A stretch of DNA of 15,756 bases, from contig JAPYVP010000010.1 of the NCBI GenBank assembly GCA_028276785.1, forward strand, positions 1-15,756, in the 5' to 3' direction. The stretch comes from Candidatus Nanopusillus sp. GTDB lineage: Archaea > Nanobdellota > Nanobdellia > Nanobdellales > Nanobdellaceae. Within the stretch, counting starts at the first letter, position 1. Each line of letters opens with the position of its first letter. Shown here one piece after another: positions 996 through 13,975 of the stretch. Both the position numbers and the translations under genes were made by a program. Below the pieces are notes generated by a model. That model had not been told where the DNA came from and ran no database searches. It worked only from the letters and a program-made list of their open reading frames with translations.

Positions 996-1442
996 TTATT
1001 GTGAAAATAAATATTTTTTGAATACTTTTATTATTTGATCATAAATTTCCTCCATATCCTTAATCGAATCTCCTATTAGCTCCATGCTAGCAACTGTCTT
1101 CTCTATTTCTCTGATTCTATCTAACTCTTTTCTTTTGTTATCTTTTTTACTTTTGTTTTCTTTAGTCTCTTCATCTTCATTAGAATTTTCTTTTTTATCA
1201 TCTTCTTCATTGGAATTCTCTTTTTTATTATCATCCTCATTAGAATTTTCTTTTTTATCATCTTCCTGTTTTTTGTATAAGCTAATAATAAGATAACAAT
1301 CTTCTAATAAAATCAATAGTTTATTCTTTAATAGATCTATATCATCATTAGTAGCCCTTAATTTAGCTCTAGCAAATGAGAGTTGAAAATCTAATAGATG
1401 TGCTAAAAAAACATTCTTTAACTGTTGATCTATATATACCAT
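996..1442 (-). CDS. hypothetical acidic/lysine-rich protein with a 10-aa tandem repeat (DDKKENSNE-type)
   Basis: 148-aa ORF. Helical N- and C-terminal parts flank three copies of a (E/D)DDKKENSNE repeat encoded by a 3 x 30-nt tandem repeat. Only 13 nt separate it from the upstream gene's stop, so it is probably in an operon. Confidence 0.7.
   Translation of the reverse strand: MVYIDQQLKNVFLAHLLDFQLSFARAKLRATNDDIDLLKNKLLILLEDCYLIISLYKKQEDDKKENSNEDDNKKENSNEEDDKKENSNEDEETKENKSKKDNKRKELDRIREIEKTVASMELIGDSIKDMEEIYDQIIKVFKKYLFSQ
1178..1267 (-). repeat. 3 x 30-bp in-frame tandem repeat inside the 996..1442 CDS
   Basis: Units at 1178-1207, 1208-1237 and 1238-1267 read cattagaattttcttttttatcatcttctt / cattggaattctcttttttattatcatcct / cattagaattttcttttttatcatcttcct. 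They differ at only a few positions. Confidence 0.9.
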
Positions 1443-2423: not shown

Positions 2424-2741
2424 ATGGGTCAGGTATTAATAGATATTACCGTACCTGTGGCACCGGCAAGTAGAAAATTTATACATCATATATATGCAGG
2501 AGTAGGCTCTGCAGTACCTGAAATTACAAAATATTTTAAAAGAGATTTTGCTAAAATGACTAAGGAATTAAGTACTAAAATTACAGAAAGAGTTAAACCT
2601 GGTAGTTATATTAAGGGACAAATCATTTTAGAATATGATGATAATACAAAAAAGCCGCTTAAAATGTTTACAAAAGAATTAATAATTTATGATTCAGGTA
2701 ATGTATATAATTACCCAATAATTGTAGAAAATAACAAGTAA
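2424..2741 (+). CDS. hypothetical small protein, paralog of 8104..8415
   Basis: 105 aa. It aligns colinearly with the 103-aa product of 8104..8415. Shared motifs are PV.P..R.FI..(I/V)Y near the N-terminus and DDNTK.P.K(M/L)(F/Y)T near the C-terminus. It is the divergent partner of the 1884..2387 operon. Confidence 0.7.
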   Translation: MGQVLIDITVPVAPASRKFIHHIYAGVGSAVPEITKYFKRDFAKMTKELSTKITERVKPGSYIKGQIILEYDDNTKKPLKMFTKELIIYDSGNVYNYPIIVENNK

Positions 2742-6210: not shown

Positions 6211-7068
6211 ATGTTTGAAGGTGACTATTATATTGATGTAGGAATTGATAATAATGATTTTAAACTAATCTTAAATGATAACTCAGGAAATATAATTAAA
6301 GTATTTGATAATACTCCAGAAATAGTTAATCAAGCATGGAGAGAATTAGCTCAACTAATTGATAATTATGATCTAATGATTTATGGTAGAGTAAAGATGT
6401 ATAAAGATGGGGATTATATCTTTGATCTATTTAAAAGATATGCATTTATTATATTTATAGAACAGAATGCTTCTTATTTAGCCAGTTTAGATGGTTATAG
6501 AATAAAATACCCAAACTTTACTTATTACATTGCTACACTATATAAACTTTATAAAGCATTTGTTAATCCAAAAACTACTTTAAGTCCTCAAGAATTTATT
6601 TTAATTATTAATCCTTTATTAACTAAAATAAGACCAAACCTTTCCGGACAAGAACTAATTAAATTATTTGACACCTTTGCAATGAATTATTATAAAGCAA
6701 TAGATTATATAAATAAAGAACGTTTAGGTCTTAATAAGGTTATGATTGCAGCTGAAAGACCAATAAATGAAGAACCTAGTACATTAATTACACAACCTAA
6801 TGAAATGGCTATTAGACCAGCTCCATCAATTAATCAACCAAATGCAATAACAGCTTCAGCCCAACCAATGCCTTCTTCACAAAATCCAGGACCACTACCA
6901 ATGAATAATCCACCACAGGTAGTACCTCAAAGACCTCCAGAAATAGTTCAACCAAAAGAAGAAATAACCAAACCAATAGAAGAGAACAAACCAGTTCCAA
7001 CAGAAGAGGCAAATATTAGAAACATTAAAATAGAGCATAGAAGACTTAAATATTCTGAAAATGGATAG
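6211..7068 (+). CDS. hypothetical protein with a Pro/Gln/Asn-rich C-terminal region
   Basis: 285 aa. A globular N-terminal part of about 180 aa is followed by a low-complexity region (PAPSINQPNAITASAQPMPSSQNPGPLPMNNPPQVVPQRPPEIVQPKEE). It overlaps the integrase start by 8 nt (ATGGATAG). Confidence 0.75.
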   Translation: MFEGDYYIDVGIDNNDFKLILNDNSGNIIKVFDNTPEIVNQAWRELAQLIDNYDLMIYGRVKMYKDGDYIFDLFKRYAFIIFIEQNASYLASLDGYRIKYPNFTYYIATLYKLYKAFVNPKTTLSPQEFILIINPLLTKIRPNLSGQELIKLFDTFAMNYYKAIDYINKERLGLNKVMIAAERPINEEPSTLITQPNEMAIRPAPSINQPNAITASAQPMPSSQNPGPLPMNNPPQVVPQRPPEIVQPKEEITKPIEENKPVPTEEANIRNIKIEHRRLKYSENG

Positions 7069-7642
7069 AATACCCAGACATTGGGTAAAATTTATAGGTG
7101 GAAGACCCCCAACTTTTGAAGAACTATATCATATAATTAGATCTAATTTAGAAGAATATTATAATTTAGTAAGATTGCCAAACCCAAAAAGATCTTACAT
7201 TAAAAGGCTTATGTATTATGCTGTAGCTTATTTACAAATAACTAATGGATTGAGAGCTTCTGAAGCCATTTTTGCTATGAAAGAATTCTTAACAAAGGGT
7301 AATAAGAAATTCCAAATATTAGCTGAAAAATCTAATAAAAAAAGATGGGTTATTGTAGCTGAACCTTTAGCATCAATGGCTCCAGTGCTAAAAACTTACT
7401 TAGATACTTTAAAGAATATTAATAGAGGAAATTATAAGGAATTCCTTAGATATAATATGGGAATTAACCCACATACATTAAGATATGTATTTATATCTAA
7501 AGCTGTTAAAAAGGTTGGCGCAGAAGATACTATGGTATATATGGGCTATAAAGACTTTAGACATATGATGGAATATTATAGAACTATAAGATCTGAAGAA
7601 CTATTAGAAGAATTTATAAATAAAATCATAAATATTGAATAA
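7061..7642 (+). CDS. int: short tyrosine recombinase / integrase (catalytic domain only)
   Basis: 193 aa. It has the Arg-I context TNGLRASEA (R65), the H-x-x-R motif HTLRY (H138, R141), and a C-terminal MGYKDFRHMMEYY with candidate nucleophile Tyr172/173. The usual His/Trp position appears to be Tyr163. Motifs were read by eye. Confidence 0.75.
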   Translation: MDRIPRHWVKFIGGRPPTFEELYHIIRSNLEEYYNLVRLPNPKRSYIKRLMYYAVAYLQITNGLRASEAIFAMKEFLTKGNKKFQILAEKSNKKRWVIVAEPLASMAPVLKTYLDTLKNINRGNYKEFLRYNMGINPHTLRYVFISKAVKKVGAEDTMVYMGYKDFRHMMEYYRTIRSEELLEEFINKIINIE

Positions 7643-8103: not shown

Positions 8104-8415
8104 TTAAGAAATTTCTACACTTATCTTTTCAGCCAATTCTTTTTCTATATTCCATACCTTAAGGTTTATAGTATATAACTTTTTAGGTTCTTTTGTATTA
8201 TCATCTACTAATAATGCAAGTACTCCTGACACCATCTTTCCATTTCCTATTACTTCCTCTATTTTATAACCCATTCTTTGTATTAGCTTTGTTATTTCTT
8301 TCTTATATTTTTCTGTTAGCTCTTTATCCTTTGCTGCTATTGCTCCATATACATTTGTAATAAAACTCCTACCTGTTGGATTTACGGGCCTTAATAATTC
8401 TATAGATATTTCCAT
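8104..8415 (-). CDS. hypothetical small protein, paralog of 2424..2741
   Basis: 103 aa, colinear with the 105-aa product of 2424..2741 (see that entry). Its ATG lies 30 nt from the shared TATA box at 8438-8445. Confidence 0.7.
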   Translation of the reverse strand: MEISIELLRPVNPTGRSFITNVYGAIAAKDKELTEKYKKEITKLIQRMGYKIEEVIGNGKMVSGVLALLVDDNTKEPKKLYTINLKVWNIEKELAEKISVEIS

Positions 8416-8466: not shown

Positions 8467-9036
8467 ATGGTAAAATGGCAGATAACAAATATAAATACTG
8501 TAGTCTATTTTAATGTCCCTATTAAATTAGGGCCTTTGGCAGATAAAATATGCAAAGATTATGTTATAAGTTATCATCCTAAAGATTTTCCTGGATTAGT
8601 TATTTACCTTGATAAATTTAGGATAAATATCTTTAGAACAGGATCAATAACTATTACTGGAATAAAAAAAGTTGAGGATTTAACTTCTTCTGTTGATGAA
8701 GTAAGAAATTTATTAAAAAAGTATAATGTTAATTTACCAGAAAAATATAAACTAGAAATAGTAACCAGCTCAATAATTGGAAAATTTGATTATGATAAAA
8801 TAGACATTGAAAGGATGGGTATTGAATTGGAGAATGCTATATATGATCCTGAAAGATTCTCAGCAGCTATTGTTTATTATAATATTTCCCCAAACTACAA
8901 AGTATCTTTTAATATCTTTAAAAATGGTACTTTTGTTGGTGCTGGTTTCAAAAGTGAGCCAAACATACTTATCCAGCATATAGATCAGATAGTAAATTCT
9001 TTTCAAGAGAATATAGTTAAAAAGTATGCTAAATAA
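8467..9036 (+). CDS. tbp: divergent TATA-binding protein (two TBP repeats)
   Basis: 189 aa. Repeat 1 reads ITNINTVVYFNVPIKLGPLADKICKDYVISYHPKDFPGLVIYLDKFRINIFRTGSITITGIKKVED. Repeat 2 reads LEIVTSSIIGKFDYDKIDIERMGIELENAIYDPERFSAAIVYYNISPNYKVSFNIFKNGTFVGAGFKSEPN. Both follow the archaeal TBP pattern I.N.V......L......(Y)eP(E).FPG(L)......(L)IF.SGK...TG.KS.E, but repeat 2 has lost FPG. Confidence 0.85.
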   Translation: MVKWQITNINTVVYFNVPIKLGPLADKICKDYVISYHPKDFPGLVIYLDKFRINIFRTGSITITGIKKVEDLTSSVDEVRNLLKKYNVNLPEKYKLEIVTSSIIGKFDYDKIDIERMGIELENAIYDPERFSAAIVYYNISPNYKVSFNIFKNGTFVGAGFKSEPNILIQHIDQIVNSFQENIVKKYAK

Positions 9037-9611: not shown

Positions 9612-9920
9612 ATGAATAAATTTTATCGAAAGGGCTATTATTATGAAAGAAAGGTCAAGCAATTTCTGATATCAAAAAATTATTTGGTTTGGCGTTCTCC
9701 AGGTTCTAAATCTCCAGTAGATATTATTGCAATAGATGATAAAGGTTATGTAAAATTAATTCAGGTTAAAAGCCATAAAAATATAAAGAAAGAAGAATTA
9801 GAAACCCTTAAAGAATTAGCAAAAAAGTATGAAAATGTGCCTAATGTTGAAGTAGAACTCTGGATCTTTGATAAAAAGCAGAAAATAATATACAATAAAA
9901 AAGCCCTTTTAAATTTATGA
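9612..9920 (+). CDS. hjc: Hjc-like Holliday junction resolvase-fold (PD-(D/E)xK) nuclease
   Basis: 102 aa. RKGYYYERKVKQFLISKNYLVWRSPGSKSPVDIIAIDDKGYVKLIQVKSHK parallels Sulfolobus Hjc RKGSAVERNIVSRLRDKGFAVVRAPASG...PDIIALKNGVIILIEMKSRK (recalled from memory). E12, D37 and K53 are present, but the E of the ExK motif is Gln51. Confidence 0.7.
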   Translation: MNKFYRKGYYYERKVKQFLISKNYLVWRSPGSKSPVDIIAIDDKGYVKLIQVKSHKNIKKEELETLKELAKKYENVPNVEVELWIFDKKQKIIYNKKALLNL

Positions 9921-10729: not shown

Positions 10730-10780
10730 ATATAATAATTGCCGTTATTTTTTTAAAGTTTTATATAAAAGAATTAGTAT

Positions 10781-11305
10781 ATGAAATTACAATTAGTAGA
10801 AAGATATCTTAATGAAAATATTCCAAATTTTCTAAAAAAATCTTTAGCTGCACATTATAAAGACGTTCTTACCTTTAGTGAGGCTGTACCTTCACTTTAT
10901 ATTAAATATTTAGCTTATCATGCTATCGCATATTTTCAATACTTAAACAGTTTTGGGGTTAATGATGCAATAAAACTTTATAAAGAATATATAAACTCTA
11001 ACGGTAAAATAACAACTTTTAAGTATAATAGTTTTGAGATACCTTTAAAATTTGATGATCTTTTAAAAAGTGTAAGCCAAACACTAATTCAATATAAAGA
11101 GATAGTACAAAGTATTAAAGAAAGAGAGTATATTTTACATTTTAGGTATGAACATAATCTAATAGCTTCATATATAACTATTTATAATTTAATAAAAGCT
11201 TTTAAAAAGATAGGGCTTGAAGGTATTGTATCATTAAAAAAGCATTGGAGGCTGATTGATATAGTATTTATCCCTTATTTATTAAAGGAAAATGGACAAA
11301 GATAA
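10781..11305 (+). CDS. integrase-like paralog lacking the catalytic arginines (degenerate tyrosine-recombinase fold)
   Basis: 174 aa. AIAYFQYLNSFGVNDAIKLYKEY aligns with the integrase segment AVAYLQITNGLRASEAIFAMKEF, placing Gly at the R65 position. HNLIASY...KAFKKIG aligns with HTLRYVF..KAVKKVG, placing Ile at the R141 position. It shares IAYFQY, EIPLK.D, SL(K/R)KHW and PYLLK with 13460..13975. A T/A box at 10750-10757 lies 31 nt upstream of the ATG. Confidence 0.65.
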   Translation: MKLQLVERYLNENIPNFLKKSLAAHYKDVLTFSEAVPSLYIKYLAYHAIAYFQYLNSFGVNDAIKLYKEYINSNGKITTFKYNSFEIPLKFDDLLKSVSQTLIQYKEIVQSIKEREYILHFRYEHNLIASYITIYNLIKAFKKIGLEGIVSLKKHWRLIDIVFIPYLLKENGQR

Positions 11306-11891
11306 TATGAACAATACTTTAAATATGATAAATCAAATATTGGGATATCAAGATTATACAAACATAGAGAAGGCTATCTTAACATTATTATACCTTTATA
11401 ATGATAAAGTAGATGTTTATAGATTACATAAGATGGTTTTTTTAGCTTCTTTAGATATTCCCGAATTAAGAGAAGAACTTGATCCGAGGCCATCTATGTA
11501 TAAAGGTATATTTTATGATGAAAATATAGCTGAAGCAATTGAATCTTTAAAATTTGATGGCTTAATAGAGGGGGATACTTTTTTACAGTTATCCTCAAAG
11601 GGAAAGGCCCTCCCATTTCTGTTATCTGATAAAGAAAAAGATATTTATAATGAAGTTGTAGATTTATTTAAGGATACAACTGATGATGAAATCCTTGCAA
11701 TATTCTATTATAAACTATATGACCAAATAAAAATATTAAAACCATTAAAAAGGATCGAAAGCAATAGAAAGAAATTAGCTCTAAGTTTATATCAAAAAGG
11801 AAAAATCTCTATTGAAGCTGCTTCAGAGATTGCTGGTATGAATATAAAAGATTTTATGGAAATGCTAAAGAAAAAGAAATTACTTTCCTAA
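11292..11891 (+). CDS. fusion of a YwgA/SocA(Panacea)-like winged-helix region and a C-terminal UPF0175-type HTH antitoxin domain
   Basis: 199 aa. YRLHKMVFLAS...YKGIFYDENIAEAIESLKFDGLIEG resembles the YwgA/DUF4065 pattern RLQK(L/M)V(Y/F)(L/I)A...YGPYSeeL...IeeL...G(L/F)(I/L). The C-terminus RKKLALSLYQKGKISIEAASEIAGMNIKDFMEMLKKKK resembles the UPF0175 consensus (LA..LY..GK(L/I)S.G.AAE.AGM....F.E.L). It overlaps the upstream gene by 14 nt; an alternative ATG is at 11307. Confidence 0.6.
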   Translation: MDKDNMNNTLNMINQILGYQDYTNIEKAILTLLYLYNDKVDVYRLHKMVFLASLDIPELREELDPRPSMYKGIFYDENIAEAIESLKFDGLIEGDTFLQLSSKGKALPFLLSDKEKDIYNEVVDLFKDTTDDEILAIFYYKLYDQIKILKPLKRIESNRKKLALSLYQKGKISIEAASEIAGMNIKDFMEMLKKKKLLS

Positions 11892-11895
11892 AAAA

Positions 11896-12057
11896 TTATT
11901 GAGCTACTTTTGTCTTAACAAATACATACACTGTTCCTTTACAATATGGACATGTGCCTTTTATAGCTTTCTTTCCATTCTTTAAAGTAACTTCTTGTGG
12001 ATTTTCAACGTTTACTTTTTTCTTACATTTAACACAATATGCCATATATTGCTCCAT
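11896..12057 (-). CDS. small zinc-ribbon protein (DUF5679-like)
   Basis: The hand translation is 53 aa: MEQYMAYCVKCKKKVNVENPQEVTLKNGKKAIKGTCPYCKGTVYVFVKTKVAQ. The CxxC...CxxC spacing and the flanking residues match the DUF5679 pattern AYCVKCK.K.....P..VT.KNG.....G.CP.CG(T)K(V/M). It is below the track cut-off. Confidence 0.6.
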   Translation of the reverse strand: MEQYMAYCVKCKKKVNVENPQEVTLKNGKKAIKGTCPYCKGTVYVFVKTKVAQ

Positions 12058-12121
12058 CAATAATATATATTGCCCCTATTTATAAACTTTTTGAATTATG
12101 CCGCATAACTTAAAGGGCAAA

Positions 12122-12129
12122 TTTATAAA
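12122..12129 (+). promoter_or_regulatory. TATA box upstream of tnpB
   Basis: TTTATAAA lies 30 nt upstream of the ATG at 12152. A second box at 12079-12086 lies further upstream. Confidence 0.45.
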
Positions 12130-12151
12130 TCTTGAATATATAAATAAAAAC

Positions 12152-13330
12152 ATGAGTAGGGGGAAGGGTAAGCTAATGATTGCATATAAATTTAGGGCTT
12201 ATCCTACCCCCGAACAAGAGAAAAAGCTTCATGAAATTTTTGCTACTGAAGCTAAAATCTATAATGAAATGATTAAGAAAGCTAATGAGATGAATACGCA
12301 TGACTTAAAAACTGTTGAAAAGACTTTAAGACAAATAATTCATGATTTAGAAAGCTTATGGAAAGGTAAGATATATTCTATGGTTATATATCCTATTGAA
12401 GAGAAATTACTTTATAACTTAAAAGGTTTAGCTCGATTAAAGAAAAAAGGTAAAAAAGTTGGTTCTCTAAAACCAAAAGAAAAGTTTACTTTCTTATTTT
12501 ATAGACATCATGGGTTTAGATTAGATATTGATGGAGTTGAACTATCTAAATTGGGAAAAATAAAAGTACTCTTTCATAGACCCATAGAAGGAAAAATAAA
12601 AGGGGTTGGAATAAAATTAGATAAAGATAATAAATGGTATGTTTATATTGTATCTGAAATAACTCCAAAACCCTTACCTAAAACTGGTAAGGTTGTTGCT
12701 ATTGATTGGGGCATTGAAAAACTTTTAACTACTTCTGATGGTATTGCTATACAAAACCCTTTAATATTAGATAAATTAGAAGAGAGGATTAAAAGATTAC
12801 AAAAAGCTTTATCAAGAAAAAAGAAAGGCTCTAAAAATTATGAAAAAACCAGAGTTAGATTAGCAAAACTTTATAAGTATGCAAAAAACTTAATTAATGA
12901 TTATTTACATAAGGTTACTACATGGTTAGTTAAAAATTATGATGTAATATATGTAGAAAATATAAGGGTTGAAAAATTAATACAAACAAATAAAGCTAAA
13001 AAGTTAAGGAGGCATATTTTACAAGCTAATTACTTTAAGTTTTTGGAGCTTTTAGAGTATAAAGCTAAATTGTATGGTAAACAGGTTATAAAAGTCTCAC
13101 CTAAAAATACATCTAAAAAATGTTCTAGATGTGGCTATGTTAATCAAAAGTTATCTCTAAATGATAGAATATTTAAATGTCCTAAATGTGGTTTAGAAAT
13201 TGATAGAGACTATAATGCTGCTCTAAATATCTTAAATGCGGGGCTGGGGCAGCCCAAAGCGCCTGTGGAGGGGAAACCTCTGCTGTACATCTCCTTCTCT
13301 GAGGGGGTGTACAGCAAGTTTCCCGGATGA
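12152..13330 (+). CDS. tnpB: TnpB (OrfB) RNA-guided endonuclease, IS200/IS605 family
   Basis: It has the typical N-terminus MIAYKFRAYPTPEQEKKL (that ATG is at 12176; the ORF is open from 12098). The RuvC motifs are VVAIDWGIEK (D), VIYVENIRV (E) and EIDRDYNAALNI (D). The zinc finger is CSRCGYV...CPKCGLE. The start at 12152 is chosen on TATA spacing, and 12176 is equally plausible. Confidence 0.9.
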   Translation: MSRGKGKLMIAYKFRAYPTPEQEKKLHEIFATEAKIYNEMIKKANEMNTHDLKTVEKTLRQIIHDLESLWKGKIYSMVIYPIEEKLLYNLKGLARLKKKGKKVGSLKPKEKFTFLFYRHHGFRLDIDGVELSKLGKIKVLFHRPIEGKIKGVGIKLDKDNKWYVYIVSEITPKPLPKTGKVVAIDWGIEKLLTTSDGIAIQNPLILDKLEERIKRLQKALSRKKKGSKNYEKTRVRLAKLYKYAKNLINDYLHKVTTWLVKNYDVIYVENIRVEKLIQTNKAKKLRRHILQANYFKFLELLEYKAKLYGKQVIKVSPKNTSKKCSRCGYVNQKLSLNDRIFKCPKCGLEIDRDYNAALNILNAGLGQPKAPVEGKPLLYISFSEGVYSKFPG

Positions 13331-13425
13331 AGCAGGAAACATGTGGTAAGCCTGGAAAGGGCTTACCTAAATAGGAGAAAAGCAGTAAAGCAGAAAAGCA
13401 GAGAGAAAGGCCCACTTCTGTGAGC
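13235..13425 (+). ncRNA. putative TnpB omega RNA (reRNA) scaffold overlapping the tnpB 3' end
   Basis: This is a G+C-rich island with consecutive plus-strand stems. GGGCTG/CAGCCC pairs 13241-46 with 13250-55. GAGG/CCTC pairs 13268-71 with 13277-80. CTGTACA/TGTACAG pairs 13283-89 with 13308-14. GGTAAGCC/GGCTTACC pairs 13345-52 with 13360-67. Known TnpB omega RNAs overlap the 3' end of tnpB and the right end of the element. The exact ends are unknown. Confidence 0.6.
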
Positions 13426-13459: not shown

Positions 13460-13975
13460 ATGAAATTAAAGCTAGATCCTAAAATTTTAAACATGCCTCT
13501 TGAAGATAAAATAAAAGATGCTTTAAAAGATGCTAAAAATATAGAAGATAAGATTTATCTTTCCATAGCATATTTTCAATATATAAATAAGCTCAGTACT
13601 AACAAAGCTATTAGATTATTTAAGGAACTCTTATTATCCGATGGGCAGAAATTAGGTTATCCCTTTTCGATTTATTATGCACAAGATAATAAACTTTTAA
13701 TAAGAAAAATAGAGATACCATTAAAAATTGACGAATTTTTGGCAAATTATATTAATGAAATTAAAAACTATAAGAGTTTAATAAGTAAAGTAACTAAAAG
13801 CACATATAATAAATATTTAAGAAAGTATTTAAATATAAAATCTTCAGATATTTTAGCTTATATAATATATAAAATGATTGAAGAGATAGGTATACACACT
13901 TTAATATCTTTAAGAAAACATTGGGCTTTATTCAGTAGGAATCTACTACCTTATTTATTAAAAAATAAGACTTAA
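13460..13975 (+). CDS. integrase-like paralog lacking the catalytic arginines (second copy)
   Basis: 171 aa. SIAYFQYINKLSTNKAIRLFKEL aligns with the integrase segment AVAYLQITNGLRASEAIFAMKEF, placing Ser at the R65 position. It has no H-x-x-R equivalent (SSDILAY). It shares EIPLKID, SLRKHW and PYLLK with 10781..11305. Confidence 0.65.
   Translation: MKLKLDPKILNMPLEDKIKDALKDAKNIEDKIYLSIAYFQYINKLSTNKAIRLFKELLLSDGQKLGYPFSIYYAQDNKLLIRKIEIPLKIDEFLANYINEIKNYKSLISKVTKSTYNKYLRKYLNIKSSDILAYIIYKMIEEIGIHTLISLRKHWALFSRNLLPYLLKNKT

What the first reader, a model, noticed from the sequence alone, without database searches (positions are those of the whole stretch)
10781..11891. An overlapping two-gene cassette pairs a degenerate integrase-like protein with a Panacea/YwgA-like plus UPF0175 double-antitoxin-type fusion
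The 199-aa protein appears to join two modules that are normally found in antitoxins. The first is a YwgA/SocA (DUF4065, Panacea)-like winged-helix region (RLHKMVFLAS ... YKGIFYDENIAEAIESLKFDGLIEG). The second is a C-terminal UPF0175-type HTH (LALSLYQKGKISIEAASEIAGMNIKDFMEMLKKKK). UPF0175 antitoxins normally pair with PIN/DUF3368 toxins, and Panacea domains pair with many toxin types, but no recognisable toxin is adjacent. The only coupled partner is the upstream integrase-like gene, which overlaps by 14 nt. This could be a new toxin-antitoxin, abortive-infection or addiction module. Alternatively it could be a regulator built from antitoxin parts.
Basis: partly seen in the sequence, partly recalled or inferred. 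Interest (0 to 1): 0.7.

Follow-up and report, generated by a model that had tools for sequence, protein, structure and literature searches.

The report
Orphan antitoxin gene in nanoarchaeal virus
A virus of the tiny hot-spring archaeon Nanopusillus carries, without any toxin gene, a copy of the antitoxin from a toxin-antitoxin module of that archaeon, most likely to disarm the toxin during infection; this trick is already known in other viruses, but this antitoxin family and this host group are new.

Summary
The two ORFs are real: 10781-11305 (174 aa) and 11292-11891 (199 aa), with a 14-nt overlap. The window is a close relative of Nanoarchaeotal virus 1 (NAV1).

The 199-aa protein has a C-terminal UPF0175 domain that passes Pfam's threshold. 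Its N-terminal winged-helix domain is only a sub-threshold relative of Panacea and of the DarG C-terminal domain.

The decisive evidence is context. Full-length cellular homologs (Nanopusillus at 52-55% identity, plus Syntrophoarchaeum, Methanosarcinales and others) always sit in a three-gene module. That module is a divergent ~385-aa unknown gene, this antitoxin, and an overlapping DUF3368 PIN-like toxin, in several loci beside restriction-modification or other defence-type genes. About 145 kb of NAV-like DNA holds neither the toxin nor the 385-aa gene.

So the viral gene is an orphan antitoxin, under purifying selection. Its last ~115 nt are 88-93% identical to the host antitoxin gene, and 30 of 32 codons for shared amino acids are identical. 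This points to recent virus-host recombination.

The upstream 174-aa protein is one of three viral paralogs of a degenerate tyrosine-recombinase-like fold. It neighbours the antitoxin only in this virus lineage and is not a toxin partner.

Best reading: counter-defence by antitoxin mimicry (about 0.5), untested. It is a new member of a known kind.

The parts
10745..10780 (+). AT-rich promoter-like region (TTTTTTTAAAG / TTTATATAAA) upstream of the 174-aa gene; presumed promoter of a 174-199 bicistron
   Evidence: Read directly from the sequence. Similar elements stand upstream of the orthologous gene in NAV1 (L002) and L004. This is inference only, because no archaeal promoter tool was available.
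10781..11305 (+). 174-aa degenerate tyrosine-recombinase-like protein (NAV1 NV1_08 ortholog), one of three viral paralogs
   Evidence: It is 59% identical to NV1_08. It is paralogous to 13460-13975 (30% identity, E 2e-23) and to 7061-7642 (E 7e-8). The AF2 model has pLDDT 92. Beyond the NAV1 paralogs, BFVD fold hits are Sputnik V10 integrase (E 7e-3, TM 0.56) and VLF-1. GLRASE is replaced by SFGVND and HTLR by SYIT.
11292..11305 (+). 14-nt overlap between the two genes
   Evidence: Seen. Tight spacing is conserved in the lineage: a 16-nt gap in NAV1, a 4-nt overlap in L004/L009 and a 3-nt gap in L028.
11292..11891 (+). 199-aa orphan antitoxin homolog (NAV1 NV1_09 ortholog)
   Evidence: There are 76 homologs. 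Its architecture is collinear with cellular antitoxins that precede DUF3368 toxins. dN/dS between viral lineages is 0.16-0.39.
11292..11741 (+). N-terminal winged-helix domain (residues 1-150), distantly Panacea / DarG-C-terminal-like
   Evidence: The AF2 model has pLDDT 82. The top Foldseek hit is the DarG chain of 7yk3. Relatives give Panacea hits with no score seen above the cut-off. The domain profile finds 2340 clusters at E<=1e-3.
11757..11879 (+). C-terminal UPF0175 helix-turn-helix domain (residues 156-196)
   Evidence: PF03683, E 5.3e-10, above the gathering score. PADLOC PDC-S70 component PDLC05075, E 1.1e-6.
11774..11888 (+). Mosaic segment: host-like 3' end of the gene
   Evidence: It is 88-93% nt identical to the Nanopusillus toxin-antitoxin antitoxin gene (L007), against 73-76% to NAV1. 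Maximum chi-square test: 116:30 informative sites to the left of the breakpoint and 3:25 to the right, chi2 51.4, permutation p<=0.0005. Among codons for identical amino acids, 30/32 are the same codon here, against 40/67 upstream (Fisher p 3e-4).
11896..13330 (.). Context: DUF5679 zinc-ribbon gene (- strand, 11896-12060) plus TnpB (12098-13330), a variable insertion
   Evidence: Pfam hits. The genes are present in NAV1 and L028 and absent in L004/L009.
13460..13975 (+). Context: 171-aa paralog of the 174-aa protein
7061..7642 (+). Context: 193-aa integrase-like paralog that keeps an Arg (GLRASE) and an HxxR-type motif (HTLR)
   Evidence: phrog_9208 integrase E 3.2e-15. Pfam Phage_integrase E 0.004, below the cut-off. 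Alignment.

Best explanation
The 199-aa gene is a virus-borne orphan copy of the antitoxin from a toxin-antitoxin-like module of its host lineage, Nanopusillus (Nanoarchaeota). In cells the module has three genes: a divergent ~385-aa protein of unknown function, this two-domain antitoxin (winged-helix N-domain plus UPF0175 helix-turn-helix), and an overlapping DUF3368 PIN-like nuclease.

The virus keeps only the antitoxin and makes it during infection, probably co-transcribed with the upstream 174-aa gene. The viral protein then stands in for the host antitoxin. It binds the host PIN-like toxin, and possibly the module's operator, so the toxin cannot abort the infection when host antitoxin supply fails.

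Shown: the homology, the toxin-less state, the host pairing, purifying selection and the mosaic host-like 3' end. Inferred: binding and neutralisation of the toxin, the defensive role of the host module, and co-transcription.
For: The window is syntenic with NAV1. A NAV-like contig (L009) and the three-gene module (L010) come from the same Nanopusillus MAG.

Nanopusillus cellular proteins align end to end with the viral one: 52-55% overall and 79-85% in the UPF0175 domain.

All 11 cellular loci, from six contexts, show the module, with the toxin truncated to 71 aa in L012: L007/L008, L010, L011, L012, L020/21, L022/23 and L026/27.

The host toxin keeps the PIN acidic residues D7, E40, E84, D101 and D102. 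It hits the PIN components of PADLOC defence-candidate PDC-S70 at E 5e-9 to 3e-14, and the viral C-terminus hits that system's antitoxin component at E 1.1e-6.

Several modules lie beside defence-type genes: an MmeI-like restriction-modification enzyme, a DUF1156 methylase with DUF499 and an SNF2 helicase, and HepT with a nucleotidyltransferase gene.

No toxin or 385-aa homolog was found in about 145 kb of NAV-like loci. The best tblastn E was >=1 and a toxin HMM gave no hit.

dN/dS is 0.16-0.39 between viral lineages, in both domains.

The 3' end is mosaic and host-like.

Precedents exist. The archaeal virus SMV1 gp44 (Phd) neutralises host Doc (PMC11065993), and phage orphan antitoxins counter DarTG1 (PMC11825919). 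UPF0175 is reported only in the context of COG2405/DUF3368 (PMC5499597).
Against: There is no experiment on any member. The UPF0175-DUF3368 pair itself is a predicted, not validated, toxin-antitoxin system (PMC2701414, PMC5499597), and PDC-S70 is only a defence candidate.

Both domains are DNA-binding folds, so a purely regulatory role is equally compatible with the anatomy.

It is unknown which domain binds the toxin.

Only about 25 kb of the 35.6-kb NAV1 record and 20.6 kb of the 36-kb L028 contig were read, so a distant toxin gene is not strictly excluded.

The direction of the recombination (host to virus or virus to host) is unresolved.

The 'cellular' loci are short metagenomic contigs, and one (L007) also carries NAV-like genes, so some modules may sit on integrated elements.
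Confidence: 0.5

Rival explanations
1. Exapted transcription factor. The virus took an antitoxin gene and uses its two DNA-binding modules (winged helix plus UPF0175 helix-turn-helix) to regulate viral genes, or host genes including the host module's promoter. It does not bind any toxin.
For: The N-domain profile matches winged helices best: eS19 at E 2.5e-4, then DtxR and MarR. UPF0175 is a predicted helix-turn-helix (PMC2701414). The gene sits in a bicistron with a probable DNA-binding recombinase-like protein. It is conserved in all NAV-like lineages seen, like a core regulator.
Against: Exchange of just the helix-turn-helix segment with the host antitoxin gene implies shared targets with the host module rather than a virus-specific regulon. 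Repressing the host promoter without binding the toxin would tend to release the toxin. No shared operator could be identified between the viral and host upstream regions.
Confidence: 0.25
2. Anti-addiction or inter-element competition. The antitoxin protects a lysogen or carrier cell from DUF3368 toxins brought in or left behind by competing mobile elements, or lets the virus displace an element that carries the module.
For: A NAV-like region lies in a 113-kb Nanopusillus contig. The host module occurs near a phage-type integrase gene or NAV-like genes in some loci.
Against: Integration was not shown. In the other loci the module sits beside ordinary cellular or defence-type genes. Mechanistically this is the same neutralisation as the main explanation.
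Confidence: 0.12
3. One reading: the 174-aa and 199-aa genes form a new toxin-antitoxin or abortive-infection pair, with the degenerate integrase-like protein as the toxin or effector.
For: The two genes are tightly linked or overlapping in four NAV-like lineages.
Against: The 174-aa family has three paralogs per genome, and the other two are not next to an antitoxin. Its 190-aa relatives lack UPF0175 neighbours. Cellular homologs of the 199-aa protein are followed by a DUF3368 gene in all 11 loci seen and are never next to a 174-aa-type gene. The 174-aa protein has a recombinase-like fold and no PADLOC hit.
Confidence: 0.04
4. A decaying passenger gene: a remnant of a captured toxin-antitoxin module with no current function.
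For: The toxin has been lost, and the region is variable, with a TnpB insertion next door.
Against: Most of the viral-type homologs found are full length, 184-205 aa, with a few shorter records. dN/dS is well below 1 in both domains. The gene is conserved across lineages whose neighbouring proteins are only 50-70% identical.
Confidence: 0.04

Closest known systems
UPF0175 (COG2886) - DUF3368 (COG2405) predicted type II toxin-antitoxin pair; PADLOC candidate PDC-S70
   Same: The C-terminal domain passes PF03683 and hits the PDC-S70 antitoxin component. Cellular full-length homologs are followed by an overlapping DUF3368 PIN-like gene, as in the classic pair (PMC5499597, PMC2701414).
   Different: The window gene has no toxin. 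The protein is about 200 aa with an extra 150-residue N-terminal domain, whereas PADLOC's PDC-S70 antitoxin model is 83 positions long and the family is described as small proteins (PMC2701414). The cellular version comes with a conserved third, divergent ~385-aa gene.
Virus-encoded antitoxin homologs used as anti-defence: SMV1 gp44 (Phd against host Doc) in Sulfolobales viruses
   Same: A single antitoxin gene in an archaeal virus, homologous to the antitoxin of a two-gene module in the host's defence islands (PMC11065993).
   Different: The antitoxin family differs (UPF0175/winged helix rather than Phd), as does the toxin (PIN-like rather than Doc) and the host phylum (Nanoarchaeota). Nothing here is tested experimentally. 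This case adds evidence of recent recombination with the host gene.
Phage orphan antitoxins AdfN (DarG1-like NADAR) and chimallivirus DarG2-like antitoxin; T4 Dmd
   Same: A toxin-less viral antitoxin that counters a host toxin-antitoxin defence (PMC11825919, PMC13309987 abstract).
   Different: AdfN is an enzyme that reverses the toxin's modification. Here neutralisation would be by binding. As I recall it, Dmd is not homologous to the host antitoxins.
PanA antitoxins (Panacea, DUF4065/PF13274), many fused to a helix-turn-helix domain
   Same: A two-module antitoxin made of a helix-turn-helix and a helical toxin-binding-type domain. Family relatives give repeated PF13274 hits that cover most of the profile but with no score seen above the cut-off. 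JGI names two relatives 'YwgA'.
   Different: The window protein gives no PF13274 hit, and no relative's score was seen above the gathering cut-off. The domain order is reversed: the helix-turn-helix is C-terminal here and N-terminal in PanA (PMC8832971). Generic winged helices match equally well.
DarG C-terminal (DarT-binding) domain, PDB 7yk3
   Same: It is the best Foldseek match to the model (prob 0.99, TM 0.48-0.50). Family members also give weak NCBIfam matches to DarG model positions ~157-299.
   Different: The E-values are not significant on their own (0.06 by fold; 1e-4 to 0.02 against a cut-off of 250 bits). There is no macrodomain and no DarT.
Tyrosine recombinases (for the 174-aa neighbour)
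   Same: The fold resembles the Sputnik V10 integrase and VLF-1. A paralog hits a PHROG integrase family.
   Different: The protein has only 174 aa, and Arg-I and HxxR are lost. There is no Pfam hit and no PDB Foldseek hit.

Membership tests
UPF0175 (PF03683) | Profile match above Pfam's gathering score | tested here: met
   E 5.3e-10, 39.3 bits against 27.9, residues 156-196. All 26 aligned family members match.
UPF0175-DUF3368 type II toxin-antitoxin pair | A DUF3368/COG2405 PIN-like gene immediately downstream on the same strand | tested here: not met
   The genes after the window gene are DUF5679 (- strand) and TnpB. There is no toxin homolog in about 145 kb of NAV-like loci. The feature is met in all 11 cellular homolog loci, truncated in L012.
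UPF0175-DUF3368 type II toxin-antitoxin pair | The antitoxin binds and neutralises the toxin, and the toxin is growth-inhibitory | not testable with these tools
Panacea / SocA / DUF4065 (PF13274) | Profile match above the gathering score (25.7 bits) | tested here: not met
   The window protein gives no hit at E<=1. Relatives: 13/26, best 23.5 bits at E 1.1e-4; 12/150, best E 6.7e-6, bit score not returned. This indicates remote similarity, not membership.
Panacea / SocA / DUF4065 (PF13274) | Fold match to a Panacea-domain structure | tested here: inconclusive
Viral orphan-antitoxin counter-defence (SMV1 gp44 / AdfN type) | The viral gene is homologous to the antitoxin of a host-encoded module, and the virus lacks the toxin | tested here: met
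   52-55% full-length identity to Nanopusillus antitoxins that precede DUF3368. The toxin is absent from the viral loci. A NAV-like contig and the module occur in the same MAG.
Viral orphan-antitoxin counter-defence (SMV1 gp44 / AdfN type) | The viral protein neutralises the host toxin and improves infection of hosts that carry the module | not testable with these tools
   This needs co-expression, pull-down and infection assays.
Tyrosine recombinase / phage integrase (for the 174-aa protein) | Catalytic R...HxxR...[H/W]...Y residues | tested here: not met
   In the alignment with the 193-aa paralog, GLRASE is replaced by SFGVND and HTLR by SYIT. An H-W and a C-terminal Y remain.
Tyrosine recombinase / phage integrase (for the 174-aa protein) | Profile or fold match to the catalytic domain | tested here: inconclusive
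   No PF00589 hit. phrog_9208 at only E 0.008. BFVD gives Sputnik V10 integrase at E 7e-3, TM 0.56, and VLF-1 at TM 0.43. Foldseek against PDB found nothing.

The most novel reading that the evidence does not exclude
The cellular module is an undescribed three-part system. A bivalent antitoxin uses its Panacea/DarG-C-terminal-like N-domain to control the conserved ~385-aa protein and its UPF0175 domain to control the PIN-like nuclease. NAV-like viruses keep an up-to-date decoy of this antitoxin by repeatedly recombining the recognition module with the host gene. That would be a sequence-level record of an archaeal virus-host arms race over a toxin-antitoxin defence in Nanoarchaeota.
Probability: 0.2. 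Interest if true: 0.7.

Novelty: new member of a known kind. Interest (0 to 1): 0.5.

Why it matters
Almost nothing is known about how viruses of DPANN/Nanoarchaeota deal with host immunity, or whether the tiny genomes of these symbionts use toxin-antitoxin modules against viruses.

This locus gives a concrete, testable pair: the viral antitoxin and the host PIN-like toxin. It would extend the 'virus steals the antitoxin' strategy, shown once in Sulfolobales viruses, to a second archaeal phylum and to the never-validated UPF0175-DUF3368 family.

The host-like 3' end points to the UPF0175 helix-turn-helix as the specificity module.

The work also exposes a large family, at least 2340 clusters, of two-domain antitoxins. 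In the 11 cellular loci examined these come with a conserved, unannotated third gene.

Tried and rejected
Collections and papers that gave nothing:
- The IMG/VR viral contigs hold no relative of the antitoxin or the toxin.
- The GenBank phage collection gave no match.
- The NAV1 paper is not held, so statements about NAV1 rest on record names and synteny.

Searches with no useful result:
- PDB sequence searches gave nothing useful for the 199-aa family, the 174-aa family, the 193-aa paralog or the 385-aa family.
- The 385-aa protein has no Pfam, NCBIfam or PADLOC hit.
- Rfam and tRNA scans of the window were empty.
- The sigma-70 promoter scan gave fewer sites than shuffled sequence and does not apply to archaea.
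- Looking for an operator shared by the viral and host upstream regions gave only AT-rich palindromes that cannot be told from background.
- Looking up the window's own contig through an edge protein gave only contigs under 2 kb.

Rejected explanations:
- The 174-aa protein as toxin.
- A decaying remnant, because of purifying selection.
Full report
**What is there.** The window is AT-rich (about 26% G+C). Its gene order matches Nanoarchaeotal virus 1 (NAV1, MN056826) and related metagenomic contigs almost gene for gene. At the finding's coordinates lie two same-strand ORFs: 10781-11305 (174 aa) and 11292-11891 (199 aa). They overlap by 14 nt. Their NAV1 orthologs are NV1_08 and NV1_09.

Tight linkage is conserved in the four NAV-like lineages seen. 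NAV1 has a 16-nt gap, L004/L009 a 4-nt overlap and L028 a 3-nt gap. Co-transcription from an AT-rich region upstream of 10781 is therefore likely, but it is inferred.

**The 199-aa protein.** The C-terminal 40 residues are a bona fide UPF0175 domain (PF03683, 39.3 bits against a cut-off of 27.9). An AlphaFold model built on 15 homologs has pLDDT 82. It shows an N-terminal helical domain with a winged-helix core (residues ~24-140), a linker, and a four-helix C-terminal domain.

- The window protein gives no PF13274 hit.
- 13 of 26 family members give hits below the cut-off, best 23.5 bits against 25.7, covering most of the profile. So do 12 of 150 wider relatives, best E 6.7e-6, bit score not returned.
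- Several members give weak matches to the C-terminal part of the NCBIfam DarG model.
- The top Foldseek hit is the DarG chain of the DarTG complex 7yk3 (prob 0.99, TM ~0.5, E 0.06).
- By sequence profile, generic winged helices (eS19, DtxR, MarR) are as close or closer.

I therefore describe the N-domain as a winged-helix domain on the periphery of the Panacea / DarG-C-terminal group, not as a member. A profile of this domain finds 2340 clusters at E<=1e-3 among 1.84 billion representatives. Of the best 149 plus the window protein, 100 also carry UPF0175. The two-domain architecture is thus a large, apparently undescribed family.

**The decisive evidence: genomic context of homologs.** Homologs fall into two groups. 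Those at 60-99% identity, as far as their contexts were read, are on NAV-like contigs. Those at 52-55% identity are named Candidatus Nanopusillus sp. where a name is given, and they align end to end.

The Nanopusillus proteins are followed by an overlapping or adjacent 134-151-aa DUF3368 gene. They are preceded by a divergent 383-391-aa gene (L007, L008, L010, L026, L027).

More distant full-length homologs (about 26-35% identity) show the same three genes. They come from Syntrophoarchaeum (L011), a Methanosarcinales MAG (L012, toxin truncated) and two further archaeal contexts (L020/21, L022/23). The large proteins are homologous across lineages (25% identity, E 8e-15; alignment).

The DUF3368 proteins keep the PIN acidic residues. 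They match the PIN components of PADLOC's defence candidate PDC-S70, whose antitoxin component matches the C-terminus of the window protein.

Several modules lie beside defence-type genes: an MmeI-like restriction-modification enzyme, a DUF1156 methylase with DUF499 and an SNF2/NOV_C helicase, and HepT with a nucleotidyltransferase gene. Published work reports UPF0175 only in the context of COG2405/DUF3368 (PMC5499597) and predicts it to be a helix-turn-helix antitoxin (PMC2701414).

**The viral copy is an orphan.** The genes downstream of the window gene are a DUF5679 zinc-ribbon gene on the other strand and a TnpB. Both are missing from L004/L009, where a 108-nt spacer leads straight to the next paralog.

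Five toxins and three large proteins were searched with tblastn, and a toxin HMM was searched as well, against about 145 kb of NAV-like loci. Nothing better than E ~1 was found.

The gene is not decaying. Most of the viral-type homologs are full length at 184-205 aa. Pairwise dN/dS between viral lineages is 0.16-0.39 in both domains (dS is near saturation, so the values are rough).

**A mosaic gene.** The window's N-domain is closest to NAV1 (71% aa) and far from the host protein (44-47%). Its UPF0175 domain is closer to the host antitoxin (85%) than to NAV1 (69%).

At DNA level the last two 90-nt windows are 88-93% identical to the host gene L007, against 73-76% to NAV1. Upstream windows are 35-63% (one 74-75%) against 58-86%.

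A maximum chi-square test on the triplet window/NAV1/L007 puts a breakpoint near window position 11774. Informative sites split 116:30 to the left and 3:25 to the right (chi2 51.4, permutation p<=0.0005).

Codon usage does not explain this. Among codons for identical amino acids, 30 of 32 are the same codon in the 3' segment, against 40 of 67 upstream (Fisher p 3e-4).

Across the 76 homologs, the N-domain is 42-49% identical to the host in every viral lineage. The C-domain is 79-88% in the window-like lineages and 60-73% in NAV1-like ones.

The simplest reading is recent recombination between viral and host antitoxin genes, confined to the helix-turn-helix module. The direction is unknown.

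**The 174-aa neighbour.** It has no Pfam, NCBIfam or PADLOC hit. It is one of three paralogs in the window: 13460-13975 (E 2e-23) and 7061-7642 (E 7e-8).

The 193-aa paralog matches a PHROG integrase family (3e-15) and keeps GLRASE and HTLR motifs. In the 174-aa protein these read SFGVND and SYIT.

A pLDDT-92 model finds nothing in PDB by Foldseek. In BFVD it finds the three NAV1 paralogs, then the Sputnik V10 integrase (E 7e-3, TM 0.56) and nudivirus VLF-1. 'Degenerate integrase-like' is thus reasonable though weakly supported.

Relatives of ~190 aa (37-43% identity) occur in other elements and near cellular genes with no UPF0175 neighbour. The pairing is lineage-specific synteny, not a conserved two-gene module.

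**Mechanism.** The best-supported explanation (about 0.5) is antitoxin mimicry. The virus supplies a stable or abundant stand-in for the host antitoxin, so the PIN-like toxin stays inhibited during infection. This was shown experimentally for the Phd homolog of the Sulfolobales virus SMV1 (PMC11065993) and for orphan antitoxins in phages (PMC11825919).

Binding of the toxin, the defensive role of the host module and the function of the ~385-aa gene are all untested.

The finding is a new member of a known kind, a virus-encoded orphan antitoxin. It adds three things:
- the first case for the UPF0175/DUF3368 family and for a nanoarchaeal virus;
- sequence evidence of virus-host exchange of the recognition module;
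- an unannotated three-gene host module.

Interest is moderate (0.5).

Noticed in passing
window 11896-13330 (and 13180-13415): A DUF5679 zinc-ribbon gene (- strand) plus a TnpB/OrfB_IS605 gene form a ~1.5-kb block. It is present in the window, NAV1 and L028 but absent from NAV-like L004/L009. No TnpA is seen. A G+C-richer stretch at the tnpB 3' end could be an omega-RNA. Rfam found nothing.
   Followed up: partly
L010:1140-2297(-), L011:4702-5853(-), L020:3796-4956(-), L022:3793-4941(-), L026:989-2164(-): A conserved ~385-aa gene is transcribed divergently from the antitoxin in every cellular module. It has no Pfam, NCBIfam, PADLOC or PDB sequence match, and its conserved motifs include HxxNxNxG, AxDxLS and YxYH. 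It may be a third component or a second effector.
   Followed up: partly
L004 (113-kb Nanopusillus contig, range 75661-92215): A NAV-like gene block lies inside a 113-kb contig assigned to Candidatus Nanopusillus. It could be an integrated provirus or a binning or assembly artefact. The boundaries were not examined.
   Followed up: no
L012:3201-3416: In a Methanosarcinales MAG the DUF3368 toxin gene is truncated to 71 aa while the antitoxin is intact. This looks like a cellular module on its way to becoming an orphan antitoxin.
   Followed up: no
L007:1-600: The Nanopusillus contig that carries the toxin-antitoxin module and an MmeI-like restriction-modification gene also holds homologs of the window's 193-aa integrase-like gene (47%) and 151-aa gene (50%). 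Some host modules may therefore sit on or next to integrated NAV-related elements.
   Followed up: no
window 8467-9036, 9612-9920; L028:18685-19281: The virus encodes a TATA-binding-protein homolog (two copies in L028) and an Hjc-type Holliday junction resolvase.
   Followed up: no
window 2424-2741(+) and 8104-8415(-): Two ~104-aa genes look like paralogs: the first matches the NAV1 ortholog of the second at 28% identity by tblastn. Their function is unknown.
   Followed up: no
window 996-1442(-): A 148-aa protein carries a low-complexity acidic repeat (KKENSNE(D/E)D, about three copies).
   Followed up: no
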